NCBI RefSeq assembly: GCF_009914755.1
Contig: NC_060942.1
Direction: 5' to 3' (one strand)
Source: the human T2T-CHM13v2.0 reference genome, Homo sapiens
DNA length: 64,000 bases
The position numbers were made by a program, and so were the translations under genes. The notes under the pieces are model-generated. The model saw only the letters and a program-made list of their open reading frames with translations. It made no database searches and was not told the origin of the DNA. Below, piece by piece: positions 1,160 through 45,844 of the stretch (the stretch's first letter is position 1; each line of letters starts with the position of its first letter).

Positions 1160-3460
<2,301 letters not shown>

Positions 3461-3486: not shown

Positions 3487-4605
<1,119 letters not shown>

Positions 4606-10839: not shown

Positions 10840-11400
10840 CTTTATTTGTAGTGAAAAATTGCATAACAGTATAAAAATAACGTTGTACCCTATAACCCGG
10901 CCTAAAAAAATAGTTAATAATACAATTTAAATTCCTATTCAGTCCTCAGTGGTCACATTTCCTTTCTTGCCTCACCAGAAACTACAGCCATCAAAATCAT
11001 AATCCAATGATTTCAGTATATTTTTACCACATGTATGTCCTCCAAACAAAATACTGTGTAGTGTTGGGTTAGCTTTAAAACTATCTGAATAATAGTATAC
11101 TGTAAAAAAATTCGACATAATATTTTCCTATTTAGGGCACGTTTTTAGGTGTATTCATGTCACCACACGCAGCTATATTGTATTCTTTCACTGCTGTATA
11201 GAATTTTATTGTATTAGTATATCTATTCTCCTATTGATAAACACTTCCATTGTTTTTAAATATTTTCCCTTTTGTAACCAATTTTGTTTTAAGGATTCTT
11301 GTACACTTTTCTTTGTGTATAGCACTAGAGTATCTCTAGGGCAGGCATGTGGGGAAACACATGTTGGTGTGTGTGTGTGTTTTACCTTCAAGAGTTCTAG
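10840..11400 (-). mobile_element. Old L1ME-type 3' fragment
   Basis: Antisense L1M 3' motifs (ttctttcactgctgtatagaatttta, cattgtttttaaatattttc). Confidence 0.4.
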
Positions 11401-12115
11401 ATAAAATACTTTGTTAATTCTTTGCATTACGAAGATCTTCTCCCACTTTATTCCATGTTTTTTCTTTGACAAAGTGTTGATTTTTTAATGGAAAAAAGCA
11501 TTCGTTGGGATCATCTATTGCTCAAATCCACAAATAATTACTAAAGTTAGCAACTAGACAACTTAGAAAACTCATTCCAAACACCCATAAAAATTAAAGC
11601 CTCAAAGTCAATGATGGTAAGTGCCATCTACTCTTGTAAAACCTAATACTTATCTGTATTTATAGATTTTATCTTCAACATATTGTTTCTTTTTATCAAT
11701 GTTATTTTAATAGCTTTGATATAGCTATGCAATTAATAATAAACTACTTTCCTATTCTTTCATATTCTCATGAAAATATTGTTTAGTTCATCTTAAATAA
11801 TTTCATTAGCCATTTTTCCCTCCTTTATCTTTTCCAGTAAATAGTGCAAATATATTGGTATTCTTCCAGTAATTATAAAGATCATATTCACCTGTTTACT
11901 TTTACTGGTTTTTATCTATAGCTTAGCTGATTCACTTTATCCAAATATGCCCAATATTAGTTAGAAGTCTACATGTCTTTTGTAAAGAAGATAAAAACGG
12001 TTTAACAATGGAAAATACTTCCTAATCTATAGAATATTTGAAAAATAACGACTTGCTTTTTTCCAGCTTTACACCTATAATATAGCTGAAATTTTGAACT
12101 CACTTAATGTCATAG

Positions 12116-12709
12116 TGTAAGGTACGTGGATGTGCCTTATTCAAGGAATAGGCCAAGGCAGACATCCAGGCCTGCGTGACTCAGCTGGATTGGTGTACAG
12201 GCGCACACCTCCACTTGTTATATAACCTATTTGTGTAAGTTCATACTTGGTTCTAAGCCACTAGTGTCTGTAGAAGGTATAACTACCCTTCTGACGCTGT
12301 GCATAGGGCTTGACACAGCACTGGCACCCACAGAAAGAGACAGAGAGAGAACCACAACTGTCCATCTTGCATACAGACACAGGGGAGCCACGGCACGGCC
12401 CAGAGGGAGAAAGAGTTAAGCTGCTGACCTTAAAGGCAAGGGAGAGGCTGACGTGCAGGCATGAGGGTGGCAGGAGCCACAGAGCTAGAGCAGACAGCTC
12501 AGAATAGGACAGTGTGAGAAAGCTGCTAATGAGAGAGCTAGCGTAAGACAGCTGCTGATGAGAGAGCTGCTGAATTAAACCGCACTTCACCTGCCTACAG
12601 CCCCGAGTGTTCTTTCAGCTATCTGCCCATCCACTCACTCCCCTCGAACCTTGGCATGGGCTCGAACCTGACCCCAGGCGTGATATTTGGTGTAGTCGTG
12701 GACCTAACA
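12116..12709 (+). mobile_element. Solo LTR, LTR18B-like (HERVL18/ERVL)
   Basis: TG...CA termini; starts tgtaaggtacgtggatgtgcc as in LTR18; perfect 5-bp TSD catag at 12111-12115 and 12710-12714. Confidence 0.85.
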
Positions 12710-12731
12710 CATAGTTTAAAAATTGTGTCAA

Positions 12732-12853
12732 CGGGGCTTAAAACCTAGATGACTGATTGATAGGGGCAGCCAACCACCATGGCACATATATACGTATGTA
12801 ACAAACCTGTAAGTTCTGTACATGTATCCTGGAACTGAAAGTAAAAAATAAAA
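12732..12853 (+). mobile_element. About 120-bp L1PA (PA7/8-like) 3' stub
   Basis: ggggcttaaaacctagatgac...catgtatcctggaactgaaagtaaaa; degenerate TSD aaaattgtgtcaa / aaaatagtgtcca. Confidence 0.8.
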
Positions 12854-18100: not shown

Positions 18101-18487
18101 TGTGGTAGAAATAACAATATGTGTTCATTGCACAATTTCCTCTTTCTCAGAAATAGGAAAACAATATTTGCCGGCCTCTCTTGAAGACAGTTTCAGGACC
18201 ATGTAATTGGAATTCTGGCCAATGGAATGTAGAGTAGATCTTGACCTTAAAATCATTCCTTTTGCCTCTCCAGCCCTTTTCCTTTCCATGGAACCTTAGA
18301 AGCCATGTGATCCAGATGGTAAAGCTACAGTGAAAGAAGCTGGATCCCTACGCCACTCCTTCAAGAGGACCCCATGAAGGAAAGCTGCCTTAACCACATC
18401 ACTAACATCATCAAAGAAGAGATCTTTGTTTTGTTAAACCACTGTGATGTTGGACTTTTGCAAAACATAGTCTAACCTGTTCTAATA
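18101..18487 (+). mobile_element. MLT1 (MaLR; MLT1I/J-like) LTR
   Basis: tgtggtag start; ttctggccaatggaatgtag; ttgttaaaccactg...ctaata end. Confidence 0.65.
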
Positions 18488-18528
18488 GAGGGCTGCACTA
18501 TTAGGTTTATTAACTAATCAAAATATTA

Positions 18529-18835
<307 letters not shown>

Positions 18836-18839
18836 TCAG

Positions 18840-19970
18840 CAACAATAATGGAAATGGCTCAGGTGATGATTCACTGTCCTCAAAACCAAAAGAATGAAGT
18901 CTACATAAGTGAAATACAAATGATTTAACTTTTTTTTTTTTTTTTTTTTTTTACTTTTAACAGTGGAGTAGTAGAGCATGGGAAACTAACCATTTATATT
19001 ATTTGGGACGTTTTCTTTGTTGAAAGCCAAGAAAACTTCCTGCATACTAAGAATCTTCACAACTTCCTTAGAATATCTGAATTAGGCATTCTCAATTATA
19101 AACATAATAACAATTTTTTAAAAATTCAATAACATGATTTTTCACAGAAACAAGGTCATACTGGCTATTCACATCTGGTTATTTGGATACCACTATCATA
19201 CTTTTTGTTATTTTTGCTTACTCTTTGTAGTGTTATTTAAGTCAATTTACACCAATTCACATTAGGATTATATATTTTCTGGTAGATATGAAAATAAATA
19301 CATAGCTATTATAACACAAATTTTCATATACAACTTTAAACTAATCTTGTTACTGCAGGTGATATAAATACTCCTACTAGGAGCCACTCTATAATAAAGG
19401 ATGGTAGGTTCCCAGGTAATCAAACTGCACCCTCCTCCACCCCAAATAGCACCATGTTTGTTAAAACATTATTTTATCAGCTGAAGATATTGAATTATTA
19501 ATTGCATCTGTTCTCTCTATTCAGTCCCGCAGCTGGTCTACTCCCATTTTTATATCATAACAAGACTTTGTAGTTTTTTGTCTAAAGGTTTTTGGCCTGG
19601 AGAAAAGCTGAAGCAGTCTGAAATCTCTTTGATCTTAATTCATGGGATATCCTGGAGAGGAATGTAGGATCAGTGAGGTGGTGATGGAAGAGGTCTGTGA
19701 GCCCAGCAAGGCTATGGTAGCAGCAAAGGAGGTGACCAGATTTTGGAGACATGACTGCTGGGTGCACTGCAGGCTGCATCACAGGCATGAGAGCTCCCAG
19801 CTGCACTCAGCTTCTTATGGGCCTGGGAGCCACATCAAGTCAGCAGTGATCTATGAGATCCATGAAAAGGCTGGTACTCTCAATGGAAGAGATGACACAT
19901 GGCAGGAGGGTTTGGTTGGGTATGGGGAGGCGGATGCAAGTAATAAGATTGTCTGAGGGTAAATTTGCTG
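18840..19970 (-). pseudogene. Relic exon 15 (large; low end uncertain, abuts an Alu)
   Basis: Acceptor cctttctactagtttag|CAG. Phase 1 reads AANLPSDNLITCIRLPIPNQTLLPCVISSIESTSLFMDLIDHC*LDVAPRPIRS*VQLGALMPVMQPAVHPAVMSPKSGHLLCCYHSLAGLTDLFHHHLTDPTFLSRISHELRSKRFQTASAFLQAKNL*. Confidence 0.65.
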
Positions 19971-26333: not shown

Positions 26334-28051
26334 ATTTGTGTTATTGTGCAGAAAACAGACATGAAGTTACCATGGCCATTAGAGCTCACACACATGCAAC
26401 CATCTGCTTGTAGATGTACTAATTTTCCACCAGGTATATAACCCAGATGCTTATAAAATAATCAGTCCAATTCTCTCCCTATATCATTACCTCAATACAA
26501 ATTCTTCGTCTACTTTAAATATTCCAGTTGCTTAATCTTTCTGCTTTTCCCTGCTCATTCACCATACATCATCTTCCTTTCCATGTTGTCTGTAATCTGC
26601 CATCTAGCATTTTAGCAGCCAATATTCTCATTAATCTCATTAATCTTCAGTCCCATAAGCCTAGATAAACTGAGTAGACAAATATGGATTTTCCCCCAGA
26701 AATTGTCTTTCCTAGAGGGCTCCTGTTTTGTGTGTAATTGTTTTCCCACTCCATCCACATAGTCTGACATTGCTGTCAATCGTAGTAACCCTATCCCCAA
26801 CATAAATGCTCTTGGGACAGGCAAATTGAACCAACTGAGGTCAAGAAGAATTCATCGAGTGTTTCTAGATTTTCTTTATAGGTGCAAGTTTGGGAATTTA
26901 TGAGTCCAGTGCTCTTGGAAATCATGGTTCTAGACTGGTGGAATAAGCCAGTGTGAGAATGAAGTCCATATTATAAAGATAAAAGAAAGAAGAATATATG
27001 CAATTATCCCGTTCACTGCTATGGAATATAGAACAGGAAGAAAAATTCTGAGGATGTGGTAACAAATTAGTTGAGTCTAAGGTTGTGTTGAATCTGAGGT
27101 GGGAGCAGGAGAGAGAAGTCTGGGTTGTGGATAAAAGCTCTGGCAGCAATCCCAACCCATCCAGGGATAGTGGGTAGACTAACAATCAAACTCATATTTT
27201 CGATAGTTCTGGAAATTAGACAGATATAGTTTATAATAAAACTTTATGACTACAACAGTAAAGTAAGAAGTATTATATATTCAAGATAGAAATACACTAG
27301 TTTCTGTACGAATGTCTAAATAACAATTGAACATAAATAGCTGAAAATCCTCTGGATTCTTGGATTTGTCTTACAACTAGTCATGTCTCTGAGTTCTTAA
27401 ACTTGGTAAGTGGTGTTCTAAAACCTATTACTACAGCAGGACCAAGAAACAATATTTTGAGGGTAGGAGGGAGATGTCAAGAATGCTGTATTTGGGTCAA
27501 GATGCCCAGAGCAATCAATACACAACAGATTATCCAATGATAAATAGGAGTGATAAGCTACCAAGTCAATTCACAAATATTTATTGAGCAGTGGATGAAT
27601 GTCAAGAAAACAATAATAGAAAATGCTTTGAATTGGCAATCGGGAGATTCTTATATTCCTGAGTTTGAAGATTGCTGGATCTGACTTTTGTCAAATCACA
27701 AATCAGCTCTGAATATCACTTTTCTCACCTGTAAAGGGGAGGTGTTGGCGTGGATCATCTTATTTGGGGTGCTTTCGAGCAAGCAAGTATAAAATTCTCA
27801 GCCTCTCCGCCAGGAAGTTGTTCAGTATTTGACTTGATTGAGCAGACACTTAAAAAATTAAATATCAAGAAAAGAAATCAATAACAGTTCAAAGGAATAA
27901 TACATGAGCCACCACAAGGCGGCCTTATAAGCAAAATAAAAGTTGAAATAATTATTTTAAAGGAATAAGACGCTAGAGACGCAGTTACAGACAAGACGAA
28001 GTTCCTCTAGGCGGCCAGCGGAGGGAGACTCTGCTTCCCTTCCCCCGGCAG

Positions 28052-28118
28052 TGGGGACTGGGGGACTGGGGGACTGGGGGACTGGGGGACTGGGGGACTG
28101 GGGGACTGGGGACAGGGG
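28052..28118 (+). repeat. G-rich 8-bp minisatellite (TGGGGGAC)6 flanked by TGGGGAC units
   Basis: Six perfect copies at 28059-28106; degenerate copies continue to about 28203. Confidence 0.95.
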
Positions 28119-28370
28119 TTGGAGGACTGGGAAACTGGAGGACGGAGAACAGGGGGACAAAACGACTGGGGGACTGGGGAATTATGGGACTGGGGATTTG
28201 GGGAATTGTTTTCAAACGCGCGGGGCAAGGACTCCCCACCGCCTCTGGAAGGGGTGAAGAACTAGTCGACTCTAACTCCCTCAGGGCGGCCAGGGAATTG
28301 CATTTGGTTCTCCCGCGGGAGTCGCGCAGGCGTGCGGCCAGGGGGAGTGGGCGCCGCCCGGCAGCGCCCC

Positions 28371-28410
28371 GCGCCGAGGCACAAGCGCCCGCGCCGAGGC
28401 ACAAGCGCCC
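28371..28410. repeat. Perfect 20-bp tandem duplication
   Basis: gcgccgaggcacaagcgccc twice. Confidence 0.95.
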
Positions 28411-28419
28411 CCGACTCAC

Positions 28420-28620
28420 CGGCTCCGCGCGTTTCCCCGCGCGTCTCCCGGACCCGCGCCTGCCCACCCCTCCGGCTCTGCTGCGGTCGAGGCCCCAAGT
28501 CGGTTATCCCGTGTCCAGGCAACCGCGGGGGCGGCGGCGGCGGCGTGAGGAGCGGGCGGCTGCTGCTCCGGGGCCTCCTGGCTCGAGCCCTTAGCCCCCG
28601 ACTCCCGGCGTTTCGGCGCC
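28420..28620 (-). ncRNA. Candidate non-coding first exon of a minus-strand transcript (TSS position estimated)
   Basis: Consensus donor CCG|GTGAGT at 28420/28419 inside the CpG island; no ATG upstream in this stretch on the minus strand. Confidence 0.5.
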
Positions 28621-28973
28621 CGATCAGCGCTCCAGGCCGCCCCCGCTCCGCCTTCTCCCAGTGCCTTTCCCTTTCTCTTGTAACCGATTTGCCAACCCAA
28701 CTCCTTTCCCTCTTTACCGGAGAGGGAAGGAGTGGAGACGAGTCAACGCCCCTTCGTACAGCAGTGAGGTTAGAACGTGAGGGGATCACAGACTTCGTCC
28801 ACCTTCGGGAGGACCGCAGGACCTCTTTCTTTCTTGCCACTTGGGATGATACAACCAGGACTCCATGCGATAACCCCATGTGGTTTGGTTGTGACTTCAG
28901 TATTGAGAAACCTCAACAAACTGTTAAGGAAGAAAGAACTTTTCCTAGTGTCTGAAAGTGGGGAAAATGACTA

Positions 28974-29230
<257 letters not shown>

Positions 29231-29561
29231 CAGTGGCACAAAATGTATTACCTACATTTTGTTTCTTCATCTGTGAATATACACTGTGAACTGAAATAGG
29301 CTTCAGAGGACAGTCGTGTCTTACACTATTCTCACCGTCTTCTTCAATGAAAACAAACACTGGACTATAAACTGAAGATGGTTAAAAAAAAAAAAACAGA
29401 ATCAGAATAAAGATTAGCATTCTCATCCAGAGAAATCATTTTTCCAGGCAACACTGAGAACAGGCAATTGCCTGCCAAGGTTAAATCAGCAAAGTCTATT
29501 ACTTTAAGAGGCAATTTAATTAGTAATCCTTTCTAAGAGGGGAAAACCAGCAAGTCCGTAC

Positions 29562-29634
29562 CTGGAATGTGGTCCTTTCAGCCAAAGATGAAAAAAAGGA
29601 AGCAATAACTAACAAACTGGTGGAAGGTCTTAAT
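29562..29634 (-). pseudogene. Relic exon 9 (73 nt, phase 1-2)
   Basis: Acceptor ctgcatatattaatttaag|, donor CAG|gtacgg. Reads D*DLPPVC*LLLPFFHLWLKGPHS. Confidence 0.55.
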
Positions 29635-29948
29635 CTTAAATTAATATATGCAGAAGCAGAGCTCTTTTTGTAATTAAAAAATGGATTCAAGAATGCACTC
29701 CACTTTCCCATCTCCCTCCATTAATTATTAAACTTTGGCTTGTTCTCAATACAATGTTAAATTATAAACCAAATGAATCATTTGCATGCCAGTAAATATG
29801 TATTCATGAGGGTTCACAATATGTAAATGTGCATATTAAAACAATAGCTAGATTTTTTTCTCATAAAATAAAACTTTACCTACTAGAAATCTCATTATTG
29901 ACAAGTTTCTCTTAATTAGAACTCACTGATAATTGCTAAACCCCTGTT

Positions 29949-30873
29949 GTGGCAGGCAGAATTCTAAAATGGACGCCCATGACCCTACCCCTTGGTATAC
30001 ACACCTGCATAATCCTTAGGACTTTAAATTTGGTGGATTTCATTTTCCTGATTAGTTTGTTACCTGACACAATTGACTTGAAAAAGGGAGATTATCCAGG
30101 ATGGGTTGGCCTTTATTAGGTAAACCCTTAAAAGGGACTGACCTCTTCCTGGAGTCGGAGGTTTGAAGCATCAGAGGGATTTATCAAAGGGATATTCTCT
30201 ATTGTCACCTTTGAAGATTGACAAGACCCTATGGTAAGGAAGGCAGGCAGCCTCTAGCAGCCGACAATGATCCCAGGTGACGGCGAGCAAGGCAATGGGG
30301 ACCTCAGTCCTACAACTGCAAGAAACTGAATTCTACAAATAATCTGGATGTGCTTGGAAGAGAACACTGAACTCAAAATGAAAATATGTCCTGGTTGGGC
30401 ACGGTGGCTCATGCCTGTAATCCCAGCACTTTGGGAGGCCAAGGCAGGCAAATAACTTGAGGCCAGGAGTTCAAGACCAGCCTGGCCAACATGGTGAATC
30501 CCCGTCCCTACCAAAAATACAAAAAAATTAGCCAGGTATGGTGGCACGCACCTGTGGTCCCAGCTACTCAGGAGGCTGAGGTGGGAGGATTGCTTGAGCT
30601 TGGGAGGCAGACATTGCAGTGAGTCAAGATTGTGCCACTGCACTCTAGCCTGAGCACAGAGCAAGATCCTATCTTAAAAAAAAAAAAAAAAAAAGGAGAT
30701 TATGGATTATGTCCTGCCATCACCTTGATTTCAGCCTCGTGAGACCCTGAGCAGACAACCCAGGCAAGCTCACTTGGGCTACTTACTTAGAGAACCGTGA
30801 GGCTAATAAATGGACATTGTTTTAAACTGCTAGACTTACCATAATTTGTTACACAGCCAAAGAAAGCTAATAC
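29949..30873 (+). mobile_element. MLT1E-like MaLR LTR interrupted by an Alu
   Basis: tgtggcaggcagaattctaa start; ggagattatcc; ataatttgttacacagcc...ctaataca end. Confidence 0.8.
30393..30694 (+). mobile_element. AluJ-like SINE
   Basis: cttgaggccaggagttc and ggaggattgcttgag; flanking tatgtcct repeat. Confidence 0.9.
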
Positions 30874-31040
30874 ACATATTAACTTACTTCACATAAACAA
30901 AAGTGGGTATTTTGAAATTAAAAAATATAGGAGTATCTCAGTAAACCCAGTGCAGGATTGTGGCTGAAACTCAAATAGAACAGAAATCAGACACTGCAAA
31001 ATCAATACCAGACTTATCATCATAAACAAGAACCTAGTAG

Positions 31041-31575
31041 TGATGGGGTTTAGGACATGCTACCCTAAATTTTTTTAAGCTGAAGAAATTTTAGAAAATT
31101 GCAGAAGCAGGAAAGTCACTCTGACCTTCCTCTCCATCTGTCTCCCTGGAAGGTCATAAAACCTAGAAAGGATTTTCTTACCTTCCCCAGGCTCAGGTCA
31201 TAAGACCCGCATGTGGGAGGTGCCCTCATATACCTGGAGGAAAGGAGCATCCTTATCCCTTATTGCTGAAGACACAGGGACACAGAGAAGAATCCAACCA
31301 AACAGGCCTTGTTAAGTTTCCCCCAGTTTATTACCATTAGCTCATACCCTTTCTGTGTGTAATATTTTTCCACGACTATTCACTTTTCATCGAACCTACT
31401 AGAAAAATCACTCAGGTTTAACTGTTTTTTTGGATATTCCTTTCCTTGTGAAGGCTCCAGGGTCATGTAAAACTTCAGTGTGTATGCTTTTCTCTTGTTC
31501 ATATGTTTTTTCGTTATAGGGGCCTCAGCTATGAACCTAAATGTATAAAGGAAAGGACATTTTTCCTCCAGTACA
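31041..31575 (+). mobile_element. MER34-family ERV1 solo LTR
   Basis: tgatggggtttaggacatgctacc...ttttaagctgaag...aacaggccttgttaagtttccccc...taca; near-TSD gtag/atag. Confidence 0.8.
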
Positions 31576-32523
31576 ATAGTCAAGGTGATCTTATTAGCAA
31601 ATAGCAAACCAGATTTTCCACAAAAGCAGAACAAACATAAATATCCAATTTTTCTATAGCAACAATAAAAGACAGAATAAAGTGATATAATAATCATGCA
31701 GAGAGAAGACAATAATCAAATAATACATTTCCTACAAAACTATCATTCAGCAGCAGAGTTAAAAATATTTTCAAAGAAAAAAAAAACAAATTTTACCATT
31801 TGCCAGCCTACACTGAACAGTGTACTTTAGGAAGAAAGAAAATAGTAAAGACATTGGACAGACGTATAGTTAAATCTAAGAAAGCTTTCAGTATATGAAA
31901 CGTTCAGCCATACATTTGTCTTCCAAGTGTTCTTGGTTTTCTCTCCCTAACCATCTTTTATCCAATTAGTCCTTAGGACCTAAGCATGCTTATGTTTTAA
32001 TATATTTCCTGACAATGCTAGACCATTTCATGAATTAGATTTAACAATGACTATTCTATGCTCCTTTTAAAACTTACATCAGAATTATTTTCAGCCACTT
32101 TTAGGGTAACTAAATGTATATCACACCTGTCATGGAGAATGAGCTAAGATCTCTTACTAATAGTAATGTTTTATTAAGATAGAGCATAAGGGTCCACAGT
32201 AGGTAATTGGATCTGGTATCTAATTATATCTGAAAGAGTGACATGATATCAATTTTTCTAAATTAAAAATTATTGTCTTTGGCAGCCATTCTCCAAAATT
32301 CAATTTGCTTACGTCGAATTACTTCTTACAGTAACCAATTCATTTTTATTTTGTAACTGACACTGATATACAATGAGAAAGTAAGAAGTTCCAAATGAGT
32401 ATTACTGGTATTTCCGTATAATGGCCTATTTTTTAAAATATTTCAAATCAGACCATTTTGCCTTTTCATAAATGGTATAGAATGTGGAGACCATCTTAAC
32501 CCCATTTATGTGCTAAAGATTAC

Positions 32524-32769
32524 CATTACAGCTTCCTAAAGCTAATGTTAAATGATCCTAAATGTTAAACGTTCCTACAGATATCCCTGTTGTCACCCTC
32601 CAGGCCAGTGTGCCTCAAGTTTTGTCATAAGCTTTAATTCATCCCATCTGGTTCTCATAAAGCATGTGGATCTGCTCTCAATCTGTATGCTTTCAGAATA
32701 CCTAGGCTCCAACACTTCATCAGAGAACACAGCCTCAGACTCTCTCTGGGCAGTTTTAATAAAGCTTGC
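32524..32769 (-). pseudogene. Relic exon 8 (246 nt)
   Basis: Acceptor attgtatcctttcag|, donor ATG|gtaatc. Frame ambiguous: phase 1 gives ...QIHMLYENQMG*IKAYDKT*GTLAWRVTTGISVGTFNI*DHLTLALGSCN with many stops; frame 0 is open for 58 codons. Confidence 0.6.
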
Positions 32770-32900
32770 CTGAAAGGATACAATTTACAGAATATACGTT
32801 GTTTTAAAGATGTAAAGTACTGTGCCTTTTGGACATGCTTTCAGCTCTTTTTCTGAATCAGATGAAACCAACGCCAGGTTATTGATTAAAACATTATTAC

Positions 32901-32959
32901 CTTACTGCATTATAGAGTCATTTTTACTGTGTTCCATCACTCTAATTTATCAAAGAGCA
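32901..32959 (-). pseudogene. Relic exon 7 (59 nt, phase 2-1)
   Basis: Acceptor tgtcttttcatatag|, donor AAG|gtaata. Reads AL**IRVMEHSKNDSIMQ*. Confidence 0.45.
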
Positions 32960-33935
32960 CTATATGAAAAAGACATATGAAACATACTACTACACTTTAA
33001 AAAGTTTCAGATGATATTGTCCACCATATCATTCAATGGTTCCATGCAAAATTCTATGTAAGAAACGAGTGTGTGTGTGTGCACACATGTGCATGGGCTA
33101 GTGTGAGGGAGGGGGTAGAGAGAGGGAAAAAACGAGAAAGGTTTAAGGAGGTTGAGTGCAAGGACAAATCAGACAGCAGTTGTTTAACCCAAGAAAATAG
33201 TGTAAATCACGTATAAATTGTGGCGCTTATGTCTTGTCTACCAGATGTTAAGCTTAATATAAGCAATTATGTTAACTCTTTGGTCCTGATTTTCTACTGA
33301 TACTTATGTTATATTAGTATTTCATTATATATTTTTGTTGTATTGGCCTTAAATTTTTTGTGAGAAGTGAGTTGTAGAAAAGTAAAAATAAAAGTGAATA
33401 TAAAGGGAATGCTAAATAAAGGTACAGCCTGTGAAATTCATGCCATTTAATAAGCTGTCAGTATTATTTCTGCACTGTTTGGGGAAAATTAAATTGTTAT
33501 TCTCTAAGACAGCCATGATGTTACCTGATTCATAACAGTCTTAGCACATTTAGATATTGCCTATAAGATAGCATTGTCTAAAACTGAATCTAGTGTCCTA
33601 GAATTGATCATGATTTTGGAAAGTAGCAGACTCAGAAGCTGTTACAGGCATGGCTTCTACATCTCTGACTCCTCATAGAAATAGATTTAAATCCTGTAGT
33701 GAAAAATTTTTCTGGTGGCTTAACCTTATTATCTATGCCAGAAATCCTATTTCAACTACCATGCACAACAGTCCTTTTAGTCAGCAAGCATCCTCCCATT
33801 TTGATAGTCTTCATTTCCTTTGACTTTTCTTTTTTTCCCCTTAATGGTAGGAACCTAGCATTCTGGTATAAAATTTTCTTTTTCTTTAACTGTCAAAACA
33901 AGTCAATAGAGAATACACTTGAACAGAGAGGCATA

Positions 33936-34011
33936 TAGATACATGTATATATATATATATAGATAGATAGATAGATACATGTGTATATATATATATGCGT
34001 GCATCTATTTA

Positions 34012-34052
<41 letters not shown>

Positions 34053-34090
34053 GCATGTGTGTCTATATATATTCACACACATACACATAT
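33936..34090. repeat. Compound microsatellite (TA)n-(GATA)n-(TA)n-(TC)n-(TA)n-(CA)n
   Basis: Seen directly. Confidence 0.9.
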
Positions 34091-34269
34091 CATGACTAGG
34101 TCTCCTGAATTGTCTTTCACTAAAAAACTACTAAGAGAAAATGAAGAAACACTTGTCTTTTCTCATGGCTATTTCTATAATCAATGAGCGTAATCACTTG
34201 CTAATTTCTAAGTTTATTCATTGGTGATTTACTTTTCCTGAAAAAGTTCTGAATAATAATTACAGTAGT

Positions 34270-34500
34270 TTTACTACCATTTATGTATTGAACACTGTCA
34301 CATGTCAGATTGTACACTTTCCTCTCCTCAAATCTATCTCTTGAAAAAATATATATTATCTTTCTTTTTCATAGCAACTGTGATTTGGAACAAGTTAAGT
34401 GACTTGTCCAGAGCCACACAGTTTGCAATGAGCAGAATTAAACTCAAACCAAACTGTGACTCAAATCAGTGCACTTCACAGTATGTTACTCAGCCTGTTT
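34270..34500 (-). mobile_element. MIR SINE
   Basis: ctaccatttatgtattgaacact...gttaagtgacttgtccagagccacacag. Confidence 0.7.
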
Positions 34501-35878
34501 TATAGGCATGCATAAAAAATCATCTTCAAATGACTAATTAAGCATGGTTTACTCCATTTTTCCTGTGAAACATGAGCCAAACAAAATGGTCATAATAATC
34601 ATGAGGGAGGTGGATGATGAATGTCATAAAGAACAATGTTTTCATTAGTTGGGATCCTGTCAAGAAATAGATGAAATGCTCAAGTGAGGTCACTGAGCAA
34701 AATCTAATAAAGACAGTGTTTACCAAATGTGACAAGGTTAAGGGAACCCTCAGGGGTGGTGTACTCTATAAGGCTACCAATAAATGAAAGCTGTCACCAC
34801 TCCTGGGCCTGAGAAAGCAAGGATGGACTCGGGCACATACAGAGCTTAGAAGTCACCACTTTACCCTAAAAAAAAAAACAAGTTTCTTACATACATTGCA
34901 GAAGTGAGGTCACAGGGTAAACCATGGCCCCTCAAATTGGAGAATGATAGGCAAATACGTCTTTAAACAAAAAGTTATGAAACATACAAAAAGTTAGGAG
35001 ACATACAAACAAAAGCAAAAAATTAAAAAAAATGGCAGTGTGAAAAGACAGCAAGCATCAGAACCAGACCAGGATAATGGCAGGGATGTTGGAATTATCA
35101 GACTATGAATTTAAAACAACTATGATTACTATGCTAAGGGCTTTAATTGAAGAGGTAGATAATGTGCAAGAACAGATGGTTAATATAAGCAGAGAGATGG
35201 AAATTCTTAAAAAAGAATTAAAAAGAAATGCTAGATATAAAAAACACTGTAACAAATAAAGATTGTCTTTGCTTGCTCAGTATTAGACTGAGCATGGCTG
35301 AGGAAAGAATCTCTGAGCTTGAATACATGTCTTTCAAATTTGAAAATCTGGGACAATAAAGACTAAAAAAAAAAAAAAAACAGAACCAACTATCCACAAA
35401 CTGTGGGACAACTACAAAAGGTGTAATATATTCATAATGAGAATACCAGAAGAAGAAGAGAGAAGGAACAGATATTTCAAGCAATAACGAGTGAGAATTT
35501 TCATAAATAAATGTCAGACACCAAACAATAGATCCAGAAAGCTCAGAGAACACTGAGCAAGATAAATGCCCCCAAAAAGCCAAATGTAGGCACATCATAT
35601 CCAAACTGCAAAGAAATGAAATTTTTTTTTTAATCATAAAAGAAGCAGAGGGAAGAAAGCACCTTACTTAGAAAGGAGCAGAGTTACAGCTGACTTCTCA
35701 AAACCCGTGTAAGCAAGAAAAGAGTAGACTGAGATACATGAAGTTTTGAAAGAAAGAAACCCACCAACCTAGAATTCTGTATCCTGCAAAATTATCCTTC
35801 AGAAGTGGGAAAATAATGACTTTCTCAGACAAATTAAAATTGAGGTAATTTGTTGCCGGTTGACCTGCCTTGCAAGAA

Positions 35879-36180
35879 TTTTTTTTTTTTTTTTTTGAAA
35901 CGGAGTCTCGCTCTGTCACGCAGGCTGGAGTGCAGTGGCGCGATCTTGGCTTCACTGCAAGCTCTGCCTCCCAGGTTCACGCCATTCTCCTGCCTCAGCC
36001 TCCTGAATAGCTGGGACTACAGGCGTCCGCCACCAGGCCCGGCTAATTTTTTTTGTATTTTTAGTAGAGGTGGGGTTGCACCATGTTAGCCAGGATGGTC
36101 TCGATCTCCTGACCTCGTGATCCACCCACCTCGGCCTCCCAGAGTGCTGGGATTACAGGCGTAAGTCATCAAGCCTGGCC
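35879..36180 (-). mobile_element. AluY
   Basis: ggttcacgccattctcc, gttagccaggatggtctcgatc; flanking caagaa. Confidence 0.93.
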
Positions 36181-36765
36181 AAGAAATTTTAAAAGAAGTT
36201 CTTCAGAGAGAAGAAAGATGATATATTTCAGAAGCAGATGTACATTTAAAAAATGAGCATCAGGGAATGAGTAAGTAAAGGTAAAATAAATATTTCTTTG
36301 TATTCTTAATTGGTCTAATAGATAACTGTTCAAAATTACAATAAAAGCAATGTATTGAATGATTTTACCATTTTGATAAATGAAAAAATGACAGCAATGT
36401 CATAAGTGTCAGGAGGGAAAAATTAGAAATAAATTACCTGCATTACCCATGAAGCAGTGCAGAATTTTTTGAAAGTACAGTTACATTAATTATAAAAGTA
36501 TACTGCAAATTCTAGTGCAACCACTAAAAAATTAAGAAATATATCTGATACCCTGAGAGAAGACAAAATGAAATCATATAAAATGCTCTATTAAAACCAG
36601 AAAAGGCAGAAACAGAGGGGAAGATTTAAAAAGACAAGCAACCAAGAAAACGTTCAACAATAGTAAAGTGTTGTAAATATGCTAGATATTCCCGCAACTA
36701 TATCAATAATCATTTCAACTATAAATGGTCTAAATCACCAATTAAAAAAGAATCTGACAGAGTGA

Positions 36766-37064
<299 letters not shown>

Positions 37065-37361
37065 CACATTCTTAATATAAGGACACAGATAGAATAAAAC
37101 TAAAAGTTGAAGAAAGATACACCATGCTAACACAAATTAAAAGAAAAATTGCCTGGCTTTATTAATGTCAAACAAAGCATACTCTATAATTAGGAATATT
37201 ATAAGATATAAAGATAGGAATTCCATAATGATAAAGGGGTAAATCTTCCAAAAAGACATAACAATTCTGAATATGCTTGCAACTTGATGTGTATCCACAT
37301 CAAAATACATAAGGCAAAAACTAATATAACTGCAAAGAGAAATAGAAAAACCACCATTATG

Positions 37362-38563
37362 TGGTCATGTGTCACATAAAGATTGAAATACATTCTGAGA
37401 AGCCCATCATTAGGCAATTTTGTCATAGTGCAAACGTCATCCCATGTACTTACCCAAACCTAGATGGTGTAGCCAACCACACATCCAGGCTACATGGTAT
37501 AGTCTATTGCTCCTAGGATGGAAACCTGTGTAGCATGTTACATTACTGAATAGTCTAGGCAATAGTAACAATGCTAAGTATTTGTGTATCTAAGTCTATC
37601 GAAATATAGAAAAGGTACAGTACAAATATGATATAAAAGATAAAAATGGTACACCTGTATAGGGAAACTTACTATGAAGGAGCTTGCAGGACTGGAAGTT
37701 GCTTTGGGTGAGTCAGTGAGTGAGTGGTGAGTGAATGTGAAGGCCCAGGCCATTACACTACTGTAGACTTTTAAGAACCATACACTTAGGCTACAATAAA
37801 TTTATTTTAAAAATATTTTCCTTCTTCAATAATAAATTAACCTTAGGGTATTATAACTTTTTAACTTTATTCATTTTGTAACTTTTTAAAAACTTTTTGA
37901 TTCTTTTGTAATAATAACATAAAACACAAACACATTGTCAGCTGTACAAAAATATATTCTATAATATATTTAATTTTCTATTTATTTAATTTTATTTCTA
38001 TTTCATTTTATTTTTTTCTATTTAATTTTATTTTTACTCTTCAAGTTAGAAAACAAAGACACAAATACACACATTAACCTAGGCCTATACAGGTTTAGGA
38101 TCATCAATATCACCTCTTCTACCTCCACATGTCATCCTACTAGAAGCTCTTCAGGGCAAAAATATGTATGGAGCTGTCATCTCCTACCATAACAATCCCT
38201 TCTTCCAAAATGGCTCCTGAAAGGCCTGCATTAAGCTGCTTCATAGTGAACTTCTTTTCTTCTTATAAGTAGAAGTATACTTTAGCAATAAATAGTATAA
38301 TACACACATACATCAGTGACATTTATTATCATTATCAAGTATGTACTATACATAATTGTACTTCTTGTACTTTTATAAGACTAGCAAGACAGTGGGTTTG
38401 TTTACACCAGCATCAACACTAACACGTGAGTAATGCGTCGCACTACAAGCTTATGATGGCTATGTCATCACTGGACATTTTCAGCTTCATTATACTCTTA
38501 TCAGACCACCACTGTATATGTGGTCCCAGGTTGTCCAAAACATTGTTACGTGCTGTCTGACTA
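37362..38563. mobile_element. Tigger3b/MER7-like TcMar-Tigger DNA transposon
   Basis: Degenerate terminal repeats (tggtcatgtgtcacataa ... ttacgtgctgtctgacta); internal aaacctagatggtgtagcc; L1 sequence resumes at TA 38564-65. Confidence 0.8.
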
Positions 38564-41309
38564 TAGTTGGAGACCTCAACACACTTCTAACAGTAATTGA
38601 GAGATCTAGCAACCAGAAATCAGTAAGGATACAGTTGAACTAAACAGTATAATCAATCAATTGAATCTAATTGACATTTATAGAATACTTCATCTAACAA
38701 CAGAAGACACATTATTGTCTAGCTTACATGGAACATTCACCAAGATAGACCACATTTCGAACCATGAAACATAGCTTAACAAGTCTAGGAGAATTAAAAT
38801 CATATGAAGTATGTTCTTAGATCATAATGAAATTAGACTAGAAATCAATAACAGAAAAAATGGTCAGAAAGTACCACATTATTTGGAAATTAAACAATAT
38901 ACTTCTAAATAATACACGGGTCAAAAAATTGGTCTCGAGAAATTTTGAAAATATTTTGAACCAAATGAAAATGAAAACATAACTTGTCAAAATCTGTGGG
39001 ATACAGTGAAAACAGTGCCTACGTTGAAATTTATAGCATGCAAAGCACAGAATAGAAAAATGAAAGATATTAGATAAATAAATAAAGTTTTCCCCTTAGG
39101 AAGCTGGAGAAAGAAGAGAAATATAAATACATAAAACAAGCAGAAGAAAAAATAATCATAATAATTGAAACAGAAATCAGTGAAATTTAAAATAAGAAAA
39201 TACTGGAGACAGTCAATGAACCCTAAAGCTCGTTCTTTTAAAAGGTCAATAAATTTGACAAACCTTTAACCAGGCTAACCAAGTAAAAAGAAGAGGAGAC
39301 ATAAATTATGAATATCAAAAATTAAACAGAGGCCATCACTACTGATGCCATGAACATTAAAAAATTATACAGGACAACTATAAGCAACTCTATACCCACA
39401 AATTTGATAACTTAGATAAAATGAATCAATTTCTTGAAAAACACAATTTACCAAAAATAGATAACCTGAGTAGGCTTATATTTATTAAATAAATTGAATC
39501 ACTAATTAATAATCTTCCAAATCAGTAAGCACCACATCAAGATGTTTTCACTGGTGAATTCTACCAAACATAAGAAAACATGATACCATTTTCTACAACC
39601 TCTTCAAGAAAACAGTAGCAGAGGCAACTCATTTTATGGGGACAGCATTACCTAGTACCCAACTGGACAAAGACATTATAAGAAAGGCAAATTATAGGCC
39701 AATATTTTTTACGAACATCAATGTAACACTCCTCCAATATATTAAGAAATTCAATCCAACAATTTTATAAAAAGAATTCCATGCTAATACCAAATGAGAT
39801 TTATTCCAGGTGTGTGAGATTGGTTTAACATTTGAAAATCAATTAATTCATCACACCAGCAGGCTGAAGAACAAAGTTATATGATCCTATCATTAGATGC
39901 AGAAAAATAACATTTGACAAAATCTAACACCTATTAATGATTTTTAAACTCTCAGCAAATTAGAAATAAAGGGAAACTTCCTCATCTTGATAAAGAAAAC
40001 CTACAATAACCTACATATAACATCATACTTAATTGTGAGAAGCTAGATGCTTTCCCCCCAAAATCAGGAGCAAGCCAAGAATGCCTCCTCCCACCACTAC
40101 AACTTCATCCTGGAATTCCTAACTCTTGCAAAAAATGGGTATAAGAGGTATGAACATTGCGAAGCATTAAATACAATCACCTTTGTTTGCAGATACTATG
40201 ATGGTCTATATAAAAAAATCCAAACAATGAATGAGAAAATTCCTGGAACTAATAAATTATTATAGCAAGGTTGCAAAAGACCAAATTAAAACACACACAC
40301 ACAAAATTGCTTCTCTATGTATCACCAATAAATGATTGGAATTTGAAGTAAAAAGTGCAACAACATCTACTTAAGCTTCCCCATAATTAAATACTTAGGT
40401 ATAAATCTAGCAAAGTATATACAAGAACTATGTGAGGAAAACTATAAAACTTTGATGAAACAAATAAAAAAATTTAAATAAATGGAGAGATATTATATGT
40501 CTGTGGATAAGAATATTCAAAACTGTAAAGATGAAAGTTCATTATGACTTGATCCTTGTTGTAGATATCAACAAACTATTCTAATATTTATGTGGAAAAG
40601 CAAGAGACTCAGAATGGCCAACAAAATACTGAAGAAGAAATAAGCCATATGACTGACGCCACCTGACTTTAAGACTAACTACAAAGCTACAGTAATCAAG
40701 ACCGTGGTATTAGTGAAAGAACAGACAAACAGAGCAATGGAACAGAAGACAGACTCCAGAGAAATATCAAAACAAATAGTCAGCAGGTCTTTGACAAAGA
40801 ACCAAAGGCAATTCAACTGAGAAAGGACAGTCTCTTCAAGAAATGGTCCCAGAACAATTGGACATCTCATGCAACAACAACAAAAAAATGAATTTAGACA
40901 AAGTTAACTAAAAATGAATCATAGACTTTAATGTAAAACACAGGCTACCTCAAAATAGATTATAGACCTAAATGTAAATCACAAACCTATAAAATAGGAG
41001 AAAATCTAGGTGACCTTAGATTTGGGTATGACTTTTTAGGTATACCAAAAGCACAATCCATGAAAGAAAAAAATGATAAGTTGTACTTCATTAAAATTAA
41101 AAACCCCTATTATTCAAAAGATGGTGATAAGGAAATGGAAAGACAAGTTACAGACTATGAGAAAATATTTTCAAAACACATATGTGATAAAAGATACAAA
41201 GAACTATCAAAATATGCTTTAAAACCCAACAATAAGAAAACAAGCAACTTTATCTTAAAAAATGTCCAAAAGATCTGAACAGATACTTTATGTACATATC
41301 TGATACCTG

Positions 41310-43835
41310 TGAAGGGAGAGAAGCAGGATGAACCCCAGGCTGTAGTGCAGTTCTGAGAATGTCTCAGCCAACCCAATGCAAAACTCCAAAGCAAAAAATG
41401 TCTAATATACAAGTCACATGTTGGGTAGATATGGCCTGGCTCTAGTGCTTCTGCCAAGCTCAGGCATTGACTGGGAGAAGCCTAAAGAGAGCATGGACTC
41501 AGTGTGAATGCTATGAGGTACCTCTAAGATGCATCAGCTGGAGGCTGTCGACTAATTATACTACTTGTAGCATATTCCTTATTTTTTTTCCAGGGAGATC
41601 TGAGCCAGGCATGTCTATGGCTTGGAAGGTAGTATATTCGTATAGTTTGGTGTCCTAGTTAAAATGTATGCCTTTAAAGAAGCCTGGTATCAAGTTTTCT
41701 ATTTAAATAACAGTTTTCAGCAGGACAGTTCTTGACCTTTGACAAACCAAATGCAATTTGGTTCCTAGTGCCATTTGCCAGACACTCTGAAAAACATCTC
41801 AACTTGTGACAGACTTCCCTAATTCTGTTGCATTTGGTAAGACAAAAGGCAAGAAGCAGAATAGTTTACCCTACACCTTCAATATGCCACACAGCAGTTT
41901 ACAGCTTCAGGTGCAACTCAAAACTGACCACATTAAAGGTTACCTGGTAAACAGGTCAGAGCAACATACACAAAATTAGTATATTTATCCTTCTATATCC
42001 AAAGAGGTTCACCAAGTCTTTTGCCTCTTTGATTAGTGATATAATGCGCCATCGTTTGCATCTCTCTGTAGAAAATATATCTTGATGTACCCAAGATATA
42101 TTGTACACCACTGCTAAATATGTAGTATATTTATTTACACTATATACATCCTGGATTTGGGAAAATAACCACATGATTTGTGGATGGTCATAAAGAATCC
42201 AGTGGAAGGAGAAAGGGGACCAAGAGTCCCCACATCCCCTGGGATTCCCATTGCCCTCACTCTATTATACTTTGGTGGTATTCAGGGTCTCTGAATATTA
42301 GCACTATTTCAGAGGTAGGACCTAATAATACCAGAAGTTCTGGGTACATTCCTTTATCCAATATATATGGTAATGGCTATAGGCCCTTCAAGGCAAGGTT
42401 TAGAGGGAGAGTCATAGCCTATGCCAGTGGCTACTCAGTTAAGGTATTTTGTGTCAGCCTCCTCTGGGAAGCTGAGGTCTGAAACTTGGTAAAAGTATAT
42501 GAATCCCTTAAGGAGACTTGATCTAGGTTTTGTCCACCAGATCTACAGACTCAGCTTATGTCACAAAACACCTCATAGGCTGCCTAACTATTTTATTCCT
42601 AGAGACCCCCTGAGCAATTGAACATCATCACAGTTTCCCATGGAACATTTAATCTGCTGTCACTCTGTCTGTGAAGCTCATTATGATCACTATTCCAACC
42701 TTGTATGTGACAGTAAAGTGCATCACCAGCCTTCTGCAGAAAAAGGGATGACTCAGTCAACAATAGAAGTACCTTGAGATTTGGGGGTTCCAATTGCATA
42801 GCCTTGCTCATCTCTGCCCAATATTGCCCTTTTGACTACTCAGTGAGTCTCTGCGTCCCCACCCCTGCCCTAAACTTAGTATAAAAGACCCAGAAGTCTC
42901 TTCCAAGTACTGGCTCTCTGCCTCCATTAATTAATTGGTGGTGGATCCCTGCCTTCATTAGAGTCAAGCCATTGGCTTGATTCTTAATCGTATTTGTCCT
43001 GAAACTTGAGGAGATGAGGACTTCAACAAAAGCTGACATAGGAGCTTTCTCATTTTCAACTCATGTTCTGAATTAGTATTCAAGGCCTCAGTTTGTTATT
43101 TTCTCTGTATATACTATGCAGGGTCATGTGACAAAGTTAGCTGACAACTCAGCCTTTATAATCATTATTGTTGCAAAAGAGAGACTAATTTACAAACCAG
43201 CTGATTCCTAACACCTTACATTCTGTCGAATAATGATGTTATCCCTTGACTCAGACTACTGTGTAATATTTCTCTCTAGTGAGCATGTCGGCCATGTGCT
43301 TCTTAGCTATATGAGAAACCAATCTCAGAATCCCAATTTGAAGCTGTGTTTGCTGGGGCCACATATGCTACCAAATACTGCTATGAACAAAAAGAAGGCA
43401 TTACAAATAGGTACTGTGGAGAGCCAAATAAAAGGATAACATACAACATATGAGCAGGATTTGGGGAAATCAAATGATTGGTTAAAAATCCTGGGAATAA
43501 CAAAATGGTGAGTTTTTACCATCCACAGCCAGAGCACGTAATAGGAAATAGAGGTAACAGAACCCAGAATTATCAACTATACTCCTAGAAGAGGGTCATC
43601 TGACAGGAGTTCTAGCTATCAGTAGAGTAGTAAGAGTGAAACGGGAAAATTAATTTCCAAATATCACCCTTCTTCTGCCCTCCAATCTCTTGCTGGAAAT
43701 CCCATTAGGAGATGGAAGCCAGAAAGCAAGGGTTCTCCTTTATTTATTCCAAATAATTCAACCATTTAGAGCACAGAGCAGGATGGTGAATGGTGAAGAA
43801 ATAGATTCAGATGAGCAAATAAAAGTATCCAACGG
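41310..43835 (-). mobile_element. Ancient ERVL-class remnant (LTR16/LTR33-like pieces around a HERV16/ERVL-like internal gag-pro fragment)
   Basis: The minus strand at about 42150-42400 resembles the ERVL protease region; LTR-like segments at about 41310-41620 and 43600-43835. Confidence 0.55.
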
Positions 43836-44625
43836 GGTGTTAAATGCTTCTACAGATGTCTAGGAGGGTGCCCTAAACCCACGTGACCCAATGTGGGTCT
43901 AGCCTCAGGATAAGAGATAATAGGAAATAGTAGAAATTCAGGATAGTTTTGATAAGGATACAAAAGGTTCCTGGGTTACTTTCTGGTTGAAACCCAAGAA
44001 GATGCTGACCCTCAGAGAGCAGTCCATAAAACCAGCATGGTATAATAACAATATATTAGGAATTGTGACAGAGCAATTTCATGTAGAGGTAATCTGAGAA
44101 AGGCTCCATCATGCTCCAATCTCTCACAGTCACAGAAAAGAGAGAAAGTGAGACTGAATCTTTCCCATATTCACTGCTCTTCTTGAGAGGGCGACAGGGC
44201 ATCTGAGATGGTGAGACGAATTGATGAAATCCCCTAAATAGTTATGGAACCCAAAAACCAATGCATAAAAGCTACTGTGGAACCTTAAACATGGCCTCAG
44301 ATGCCAGTGGTACTAGATGCTAACAACCAAAGACTTCAGGGTAGGCTCCTTCTCAGATGCGTGGCATAAGATAGAGGACATACCACACCCATCGATGACA
44401 AGAAACTCCATAAAACATGGTGAGTAGAGGAGTCTTGAGTATACTCTGAGTTCATTAAGTGCAATTGAAACAAAATGTACTAAAATATATAAGCTCCATT
44501 GAAACCTACTAGATTCAATTATGAGCCATCAACCAAGTATTCAAAACAGAGATTATGTAATTGATAAGTAAAAAGTTACATTTGCCACCTGCATATGTGA
44601 TTTGAAAATTCCTACCCAGAAAGCT

Positions 44626-44626
<1 letters not shown>

Positions 44627-44656
<30 letters not shown>
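44627..44656. repeat. (CA)n microsatellite
   Basis: Seen directly. Confidence 0.95.
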
Positions 44657-44657
<1 letters not shown>

Positions 44658-45844
44658 TATATCTACATAGTCTGTTGCACTAAAAATAATTTGAGCAAAA
44701 TTGAGATCCGGGTGAATAGAAAAATTTTTCAATACCCATAGTTCTGTTCTGACTACCATCAGACATTTCAATTTGTAATTCCAATAAAATATATTACCCA
44801 AATGGCCTACTGTGTTAATCAGCACCATTTAGCTTAAACTCCACAAGCTTTATCTTCTACATACAATCTATAGCTCAATGTCATAAAAAAGTTATGTTTC
44901 TAAAGAAGAACATACATTTGCAGTTATTTTATTTTACTTTAATCTGTGACTACTTCTAACTGATAGTACTTAAAGCTTATAAATTTTACAAAAGGAATAA
45001 CACAGTGATTATTCCTAGTGAAGCCCCTAGGGTGTGTAAGTCCAAGCAGTGATGACCACCACATGTCTTATTTAGCCTTCAAATTTTTCCTCTGACACAA
45101 GATGCTATTGCTAAATTAATTATAATGTAGAATTCCCATTATGATTATGTGTATGTGTTTCCTTGCAGTCTTTAACGTTTAACCATAAGATCAAAACAAA
45201 AATTTCCATTGTAATAAAACTCTACTTTCCATTAAATTTTAATACATTAGAAATATAAAACTAATATTTTTCTTGATTTTTAAAAGATAACAATGAACAT
45301 TTGTGAATAATGAGAAGACATTTGTGCTTCAAATGAACACAGCATATGCCAGGTTTCAGCCCCAAGGTAATTTTTATGACCGAGTTACCAGATCCTAAAG
45401 TTTTTATGGTAGATATGTCACCTCTTTAAATATACATACAATAATTTCAAGTCTTTTGTCATATGAATTATTTCTGTTAATAATTTGGAAGCTCAAAAAT
45501 GATTCTCCTTCTTAGTATGTCATCATGTCTGTTAAAATGTTATTTTATATCTTCTATCTTATTGAATTTTTCTGCTTCAAGCTCTATTTTTTATTGTATG
45601 ATTGTATACCGAAATACAAAAACACACTAACAAAAGTAATGTTTCTAAGGCTACATGGACTAATGGTTGCATTTAGGAAAATGTTACATTTAAAAGATTA
45701 ATATTCTTCTTAAATTATTATTAAATATAATGCACCTACTAACCTAGTAAGTAGCTTGCATTTAGCTATTGCTCTTAATTTTTAAATTCTTTGCTGCTAA
45801 ATCTCCACTGATCTGCAAACATATTTAGGAGGAAGAAGGAAGTA

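What the first reader, a model, noticed from the sequence alone, without database searches (positions are those of the whole stretch)
27970..28830. CpG-island promoter inside an intron of the dead gene, pointing into its downstream exons
Seen: an isolated CpG island between relic exons 9 and 10, with a consensus minus-strand donor (CCG|GTGAGT, 28420) and no intact CDS anywhere in the window. Known: retained CpG density implies germline hypomethylation, typical of active promoters. Inference: a live transcript (lncRNA, or long 5' UTR of a gene beyond the window's left edge) that may recycle pseudogene exons. This would help explain the well-preserved splice sites despite coding decay.
Basis: partly seen in the sequence, partly recalled or inferred. 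Interest (0 to 1): 0.75.

Follow-up and report, generated by a model that had tools for sequence, protein, structure and literature searches.

The report
CCDC178 gene's ordinary CpG-island promoter
The CpG island is real, but it is the already annotated promoter and non-coding first exons of the live, testis-expressed gene CCDC178, not a promoter hidden inside a dead gene.

Summary
Window 28121-28930 is the only CpG island in the 64 kb that is not a repeat: 810 bp, GC 0.64, CpG obs/exp 0.87, against 0.356 and 0.22 for the whole window. A minus-strand donor CCG|GTGAGT has its last exon base at 28420.

The island is a minus-strand promoter, and its transcript is the long 5' UTR of a gene whose coding exons lie beyond the left edge. 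The gene is CCDC178, which RefSeq lists as protein-coding. The 28420 donor is the donor of its exon 1 (28420-28488). All four exon forms in the island (three alternative first exons, one with two starts) have a GT donor and no AG acceptor. All annotated transcripts continue into non-coding exon 2 (27729-27848).

Nothing supports a "dead gene" with "relic exons 9 and 10". RefSeq places no exon upstream of 28807. No minus-strand open frame of the 111 tested matched Pfam above cutoff. Ccdc178 knockout mice are male-infertile (PMC11327391).

The promoter's short repeats and the island's methylation are already in print (PMC5887250, PMC10314401, PMC11328442). Verdict: already known, low interest.

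The parts
28121..28930 (.). CpG island (810 bp, GC 0.64, 73 CpG, obs/exp 0.87); no TATA or CCAAT motif, 5 GGGCGG boxes
28420..28488 (-). CCDC178 exon 1 of the selected transcript (longer form to 28507); non-coding; no AG upstream; donor CCG|GTGAGT
   Evidence: hub RefSeq table. The STR offsets -57 and -79 in PMC5887250 fit a start at 28488
28718..28807 (-). alternative first exon (most upstream annotated start); donor CCG|GTAAAG; no AG upstream
   Evidence: hub table
28240..28338 (-). alternative first exon; donor GCG|GTGGGG; no AG upstream
   Evidence: hub table
27729..27848 (-). CCDC178 exon 2, non-coding; T-rich tract plus AG acceptor; donor CAG|GTGAGA; holds an upstream ATG at 27758-27756
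   Evidence: hub table
28525..28545 (.). (GCG)7 trinucleotide repeat just upstream of the 28488/28507 starts; it contains the '-57 (CGC)5' core-promoter STR printed for CCDC178
   Evidence: PMC5887250 Table 1 passage
28363..28410 (.). 20-bp unit repeated 2.3 times, directly downstream of the 28420 donor in intron 1
28053..28195 (+). (GGGGACTG) x 18.4 minisatellite in intron 1; G-quadruplex-type motif on the plus strand, which is the template strand for CCDC178
28511..28523 (-). weak RFX X-box-like site (one perfect half-site, second half with 2 mismatches) just upstream of the 28507 start; not above chance

Best explanation
The island is the TATA-less CpG-island promoter and 5' end of the protein-coding gene CCDC178, which runs on the minus strand. 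Transcription starts at several places inside the island: annotated starts lie at 28807, 28507, 28488 and 28338. Each start exon is non-coding and ends in a GT donor. All annotated transcripts continue into non-coding exon 2 (27729-27848). From there the transcript crosses a long intron to the coding exons beyond the window's left edge. The retained CpG density reflects low germline methylation of an active promoter of a gene expressed mainly in testis. In somatic tissues the island is variably methylated.

Shown: the island, the splice-site anatomy, the match to the RefSeq exons, and the printed core-promoter repeat offsets. Inferred: germline hypomethylation, Sp1-type GC-box use, and early termination of any plus-strand divergent transcript.
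For: Island statistics come and the GC profile.

The hub's RefSeq table puts the CCDC178 span end at 28807 and lists exons 28718-28807, 28420-28488, 28420-28507, 28240-28338 and 27729-27848, none of them coding.

4 of 4 island exon forms have a GT donor and 0 of 4 have an AG acceptor. Exon 2 has a T-rich tract plus AG and a GTGAGA donor.

(PMC5887250, Table 1 passage) lists CCDC178 ENST00000300227 core-promoter repeats at -79 (AGC)3 and -57 (CGC)5. On the minus strand these begin at 28567 and 28545 (array 28525-28545). That is exactly 79 and 57 bases upstream of 28488.

(PMC10314401, passages): array probe cg05994094 is labelled CCDC178, 'Island'. (PMC11328442, passages): an 857-bp, 10-probe region assigned to CCDC178 is more methylated in female placenta, and expression is 1.46-fold higher in males.

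(PMC11327391, part 1 of 2 of the text): CCDC178 protein is predominantly in testis and knockout males are infertile.

5 GGGCGG boxes against 1.76 in shuffles (11 of 300 shuffles reach 5); 0 TATA and 0 CCAAT motifs.

in the 2 kb downstream on the minus strand there is 1 poly(A) hexamer, against a window mean of 2.3 per kb, and the 5' splice-like hits there belong to just two sites, the annotated donors at 28420 and 27729. In the 2 kb on the plus strand there are 6 poly(A) hexamers and one donor-like site.

the island sequence is single-copy in its own genome (1 match, itself).
Against: No expression, CAGE, chromatin or methylation data could be read here, so actual initiation rests on the RefSeq models and the cited papers. 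I could not map the papers' hg19 coordinates onto this window. Equating their 'CCDC178 island' with this island is therefore an inference, based on this being the only non-repeat island in the 64 kb that holds every annotated CCDC178 start. The coding exons lie outside the window and were not inspected. The motif counts are small, and the consensus motifs were recalled from memory.
Confidence: 0.95

Rival explanations
1. One reading: an internal promoter inside an intron of a decayed gene makes a lncRNA that reuses the pseudogene's downstream exons.
For: The window has no CDS (hub table). The exons it holds are non-coding yet have good splice sites. For the isoform that starts at 28807, the stretch 28489-28717 of the island is indeed intronic.
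Against: RefSeq shows no exon upstream of 28807 and no pseudogene in the window. 0 of 4 island exon forms have an acceptor. 0 of 19 open frames of 110 aa or more and 0 of 111 minus-strand open frames of 60 aa or more match Pfam above cutoff; the single sub-cutoff hit is 16.5 bits against a cutoff of 27. The 20 kb upstream matches only dispersed repeats elsewhere in the genome (though only 39 of 53229 candidates were scored). CCDC178 is protein-coding and functional.
Confidence: 0.02
2. The island chiefly serves a plus-strand transcript, or is a true bidirectional promoter with a stable divergent gene.
For: CpG-island promoters commonly fire in both directions (general knowledge). A GC|GTGAGG donor-like site lies on the plus strand at 28544/28545.
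Against: RefSeq lists no plus-strand gene in the window or within 100 kb after it (hub table). On the plus strand there are 6 poly(A) hexamers within 2 kb and only one consensus-like donor, at 30233. A literature search for CCDC178-AS1 and CCDC178-DT found 0 papers.
Confidence: 0.03
3. The stretch is GC-rich only because of tandem repeats, and has no promoter function.
For: One search reports six overlapping tandem-repeat rows in 27000-30000: five arrays in 28053-28545, two of them overlapping, and a sixth at 28969-28991.
Against: The most CpG-dense part (28300-28700, GC 0.71-0.79) is mostly non-repetitive. It holds the annotated start exons and the GC boxes.
Confidence: 0.01

Closest known systems
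CCDC178 (C18orf34) promoter CpG island, as annotated in RefSeq/Ensembl and probed on Illumina methylation arrays (cg05994094)
   Same: Same place, strand, start exons and donor. The printed core-promoter repeat offsets fit a start at 28488 to the base.
   Different: Nothing found. This is the same object.
Generic TATA-less CpG-island promoter with dispersed start sites and alternative non-coding first exons
   Same: Several starts spread over about 470 bp, GC boxes, no TATA motif, and short first exons spliced to a common exon 2.
   Different: The gene is expressed mainly in testis. By general knowledge, many CpG-island promoters serve broadly expressed genes. Somatic methylation of the island varies with sex and in tumours.
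Intronic alternative promoters or lncRNA promoters embedded in pseudogenes
   Same: A CpG island followed by non-coding spliced exons.
   Different: There are no upstream exons, and the host gene is not a pseudogene. The defining features are not met (see Membership tests).

Membership tests
CpG island (criteria recalled: Gardiner-Garden & Frommer; Takai & Jones) | Length >= 200 bp (>= 500 in the stricter version), GC >= 0.50 (0.55), CpG obs/exp >= 0.60 (0.65) | tested here: met
   810 bp, GC 0.64, obs/exp 0.87
CpG island (criteria recalled: Gardiner-Garden & Frommer; Takai & Jones) | Not an Alu or other CpG-rich interspersed repeat | tested here: met
   No overlap with the masked stretches in the hub table. 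Single copy in its own genome (1 match, itself).
Promoter / 5' end of CCDC178 | Annotated transcription starts of the gene lie inside the element, on the gene's strand | tested here: met
   The hub RefSeq table gives first exons that end at 28807, 28507, 28488 and 28338 on the minus strand. 0 of 4 have an AG acceptor. The printed STR offsets fit 28488.
Promoter / 5' end of CCDC178 | Start exons splice to the gene's next exon through canonical sites | tested here: met
   4 of 4 GT donors. Exon 2 has a T-rich tract plus AG.
Promoter / 5' end of CCDC178 | Measured initiation (CAGE), H3K4me3, and an unmethylated state in the germline | not testable with these tools
   No expression or chromatin data are available here. 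Only array-methylation reports in somatic tissues were read.
   None in the RefSeq table. No Pfam-recognisable relic among 111 minus-strand open frames. Only dispersed repeats matched in a partial test of the upstream 20 kb.
   RefSeq type is protein_coding (hub table). The mouse protein was detected, and the knockout is male-infertile (PMC11327391). The human coding exons lie outside the window and were not inspected.
Bidirectional gene-pair promoter | A second annotated gene starts within about 1 kb on the opposite strand | tested here: not met
   The hub table has no other gene in the window and none within 100 kb after it. 0 papers for CCDC178-AS1 or CCDC178-DT.

The most novel reading that the evidence does not exclude
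The G-quadruplex-type minisatellite (GGGGACTG)x18 lies on the template strand about 290-435 bp downstream of the main start. Together with the promoter trinucleotide repeats reported as human-specific, it might act as a length-dependent modulator of CCDC178 transcription or of the island's methylation. That could contribute to the sex-linked and tumour-linked methylation differences reported for this island. A short-lived plus-strand divergent RNA may also arise here, but that would be generic to CpG-island promoters.
Probability: 0.07. Interest if true: 0.3.

Novelty: already known. Interest (0 to 1): 0.05.

Why it matters
It matters little beyond correcting the record. The window has no pseudogene mystery here, only the non-coding 5' end of a working spermiogenesis gene. 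The useful lesson for the scan is that spliced exons without an open frame next to a CpG island usually mean 5' UTR exons of a gene whose coding part lies outside the window. They need not mean coding decay.

Tried and rejected
- Rfam over the whole window at gathering thresholds gave 0 matches.
- Pfam on 19 stop-to-stop open frames of 110 aa or more, both strands, gave 0 families.
- Pfam on all 111 minus-strand open frames of 60 aa or more gave 0 above cutoff. One chance-level hit appeared (YmiA-like, 16.5 bits against a cutoff of 27, E 0.0072). The 92 plus-strand frames of 60 aa or more were not scanned, except those of 110 aa or more that were. Pfam has little power on short decayed exons or on coiled-coil proteins, so this is weak negative evidence.
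- A paralogy test of the 20 kb upstream of the island against its own genome gave 79 matches. All fall on a few query segments that each hit many chromosomes, so they are dispersed repeats. Only 39 of 53229 first-look candidates were scored, so a single-copy paralogue could have been missed.
- The RFX idea (a cilia or flagella regulator): no strict X-box was found. One relaxed site lies at 28523-28511. Half-site counts are at chance (123 of 300 shuffles reach the observed count). The literature search CCDC178 + RFX2 found 1 paper, a tumour expression list that I saw only as a listing. Rejected as unsupported.
- Earlier findings of this scan were not open to the session.
- Cross-species conservation of the splice sites could not be tested, because no other eukaryote genome is held.
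- The hg19 coordinates in the papers could not be mapped onto the window.
- Supplements of the cited papers were not opened. They may hold probe-level positions.

Full report
**1. The observation**

The stretch was read directly and profiled. GC rises from about 0.35-0.40 in the flanks to 0.70-0.79 between 28200 and 28700.

A script gave these figures:

| Span | Length | GC | CpG count | CpG obs/exp |
|---|---|---|---|---|
| Sliding-window block 28121-28930 | 810 bp | 0.64 | 73 | 0.87 |
| Whole window | 64000 bp | 0.356 | 444 | 0.22 |

The window averages 6.9 CpG per kb, against 76 in kb 28.

Four other stretches pass the lax 200-bp test. Three (3791-4220, 18481-18890, 35831-36090) coincide with stretches the hub table lists as masked repeats. 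The fourth (12541-12740) has only 8 CpG in 200 bp. The island is therefore real, far above background, and isolated.

The donor is also real. On the minus strand the sequence reads CCG|GTGAGT with the last exon base at 28420. It is the only GGTRAGT on the minus strand in 27000-30000. The window holds 8 such heptamers on each strand, so the motif alone is not strong evidence.

**2. What it is**

The hub's RefSeq table places CCDC178 on the minus strand with its span ending at 28807. In this window it lists the following exons, none of them coding:

- 27729-27848 and 28420-28488 (selected transcript NM_001105528.4)
- 28240-28338, 28420-28507 and 28718-28807 (other transcripts)

I checked the splice anatomy of each.

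- All four island exon forms end in a GT donor: GTAAAG after 28718, GTGAGT after 28420 (shared by two forms), and GTGGGG after 28240.
- None of the four is preceded by AG. All are therefore start exons, not internal exons.
- Exon 2 (27729-27848) has a T-rich tract plus AG at its 5' side and CAG|GTGAGA at its 3' side.

An independent printed check fits to the base. PMC5887250 (Table 1 passage) lists for CCDC178 (C18orf34), transcript ENST00000300227, the core-promoter repeats -79 (AGC)3 and -57 (CGC)5. On the minus strand these repeats begin at 28567 and 28545 (the GCG array is 28525-28545). That is 79 and 57 bases upstream of 28488, the RefSeq exon 1 start.

The island sequence is single-copy in its own genome.

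**3. The 'dead gene'**

I found nothing to support it.

- RefSeq lists no exon upstream of 28807 and no pseudogene in the window.
- Rfam gave 0 matches over the whole window.
- Of 19 stop-to-stop open frames of 110 aa or more, 0 matched Pfam at E <= 0.01.
- Of all 111 minus-strand open frames of 60 aa or more, 0 matched above cutoff. One chance-level hit was seen (16.5 bits against a cutoff of 27).
- The 20 kb upstream of the island (28831-48830), searched against its own genome, matched only at a few segments that each hit many chromosomes. These are dispersed repeats. That test is partial, because only 39 of 53229 candidates were scored.

CCDC178 itself is alive. RefSeq types it protein_coding. 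In mice the protein is predominantly in testis, interacts with CFAP53, KIF3A and IFT88, and its knockout causes complete male infertility with manchette and flagellum defects (PMC11327391, part 1 of 2 of the text).

These are 5' UTR exons, and the coding exons lie beyond the left edge.

**4. How it most likely works**

The island has 0 TATA and 0 CCAAT motifs. It has 5 GGGCGG boxes, against 1.76 in composition-matched shuffles; 11 of 300 shuffles reach 5. The consensus motifs used were recalled from memory. This is the usual make-up of a TATA-less CpG-island promoter with dispersed initiation.

Strand asymmetry fits productive transcription on the minus strand. In the 2 kb downstream on that strand there is 1 poly(A) hexamer, against a window mean of 2.3 per kb. 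The 5' splice-like hits there belong to just two sites, the annotated donors at 28420 and 27729. In the 2 kb on the plus strand there are 6 poly(A) hexamers and one donor-like site, at 30233. By the recalled U1/poly(A) model of promoter directionality, any divergent plus-strand RNA would be cut short. The counts are small, so this is an inference.

Retained CpG implies low methylation in the germline. That is plausible for a gene expressed in testis, but it was not tested here.

**5. Somatic methylation is already in print**

- Probe cg05994094 is labelled CCDC178, 'Island' (PMC10314401, passages).
- An 857-bp, 10-probe region assigned to CCDC178 is more methylated in female first-trimester placenta, and expression is 1.46-fold higher in males (PMC11328442, passages).
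- CCDC178 is among the genes hypermethylated in colorectal tumours (PMC4844165, passages).
- C18orf34 is listed among genes that gain promoter CpG-island methylation in cultured mesenchymal stem cells (PMC4736560, passage).

I could not map the papers' hg19 coordinates to the window. Identifying their island with this one rests on it being the only non-repeat island near the annotated starts.

**6. Searches in print**

| Search terms | Papers |
|---|---|
| 'CCDC178' | 105 (30 listed) |
| 'C18orf34' | 23 (20 listed) |
| 'cg05994094' | 2 |
| 'CCDC178 promoter', 'promoter of CCDC178', 'CCDC178 methylation', 'CCDC178-AS1', 'CCDC178-DT' | 0 |
| 'CCDC178' + 'RFX2' | 1 (an unrelated tumour gene list, seen only as a listing) |

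There seems to be no dedicated study of this promoter. It is nevertheless annotated, probed on arrays, and tabulated.

**7. Verdict**

The feature is already known, so interest is low.

Noticed in passing
window 28053-28195 (+), also 28167-28208: A minisatellite (GGGGACTG) x 18.4 with 72% matches forms a 66-nt G-quadruplex-type motif on the plus strand, which is the template strand for CCDC178. It sits in intron 1, about 290-435 bp downstream of the 28488 start. It is probably length-polymorphic, but that was not tested.
   Followed up: partly
window 27758-27756 (-), exon 2 of CCDC178: An upstream ATG with A at -3 opens a frame (MIHANTSPLQ...) that runs to the end of exon 2, although RefSeq annotates no coding sequence in the window. 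It is either a uORF that ends in exon 3 or an unannotated N-terminal extension. Exon 3 lies outside the window and was not inspected. The 28240-28338 start exon also carries a short 13-codon uORF.
   Followed up: partly
window 28363-28410: A 20-bp unit is repeated 2.3 times (96% matches), directly downstream of the 28420 donor.
   Followed up: no
window 28523-28511 (-): A weak RFX X-box-like site lies just upstream of the 28507 start: one perfect half-site, a 1-nt spacer, and a second half with 2 mismatches. That is suggestive for a flagellum-related gene, but it is statistically at chance, and two similar sites occur elsewhere in the window.
   Followed up: partly
window 26807-30420: Strand asymmetry around the island: the minus strand is depleted of poly(A) hexamers (1 in 2 kb), while the plus strand has 6 in 2 kb and almost no donor-like sites.
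   Followed up: partly
window 2181-3230 (+) and 5578-6356 (+): Long stop-to-stop open frames lie inside or overlapping masked repeats. By eye they look like LINE-1 ORF2 fragments, a judgement from recall. Pfam gave no match at E <= 0.01.
   Followed up: partly
window about 47935-48311 and about 37365-38553: A dispersed repeat of about 375 bp is 87-89% identical to more than 30 places on many chromosomes. An older element of about 1.1 kb is 73-79% identical to several places. Repeats of about 300 bp at roughly 30380-30690, 35880-36190 and 36810-37060 match each other's targets in both orientations.
   Followed up: no
window 11353-12552 and 12541-12740: RefSeq lists a functional enhancer in CCDC178 intron 2 (hub table). 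Its right edge touches a borderline CpG-rich 200 bp (8 CpG, obs/exp 0.61).
   Followed up: no
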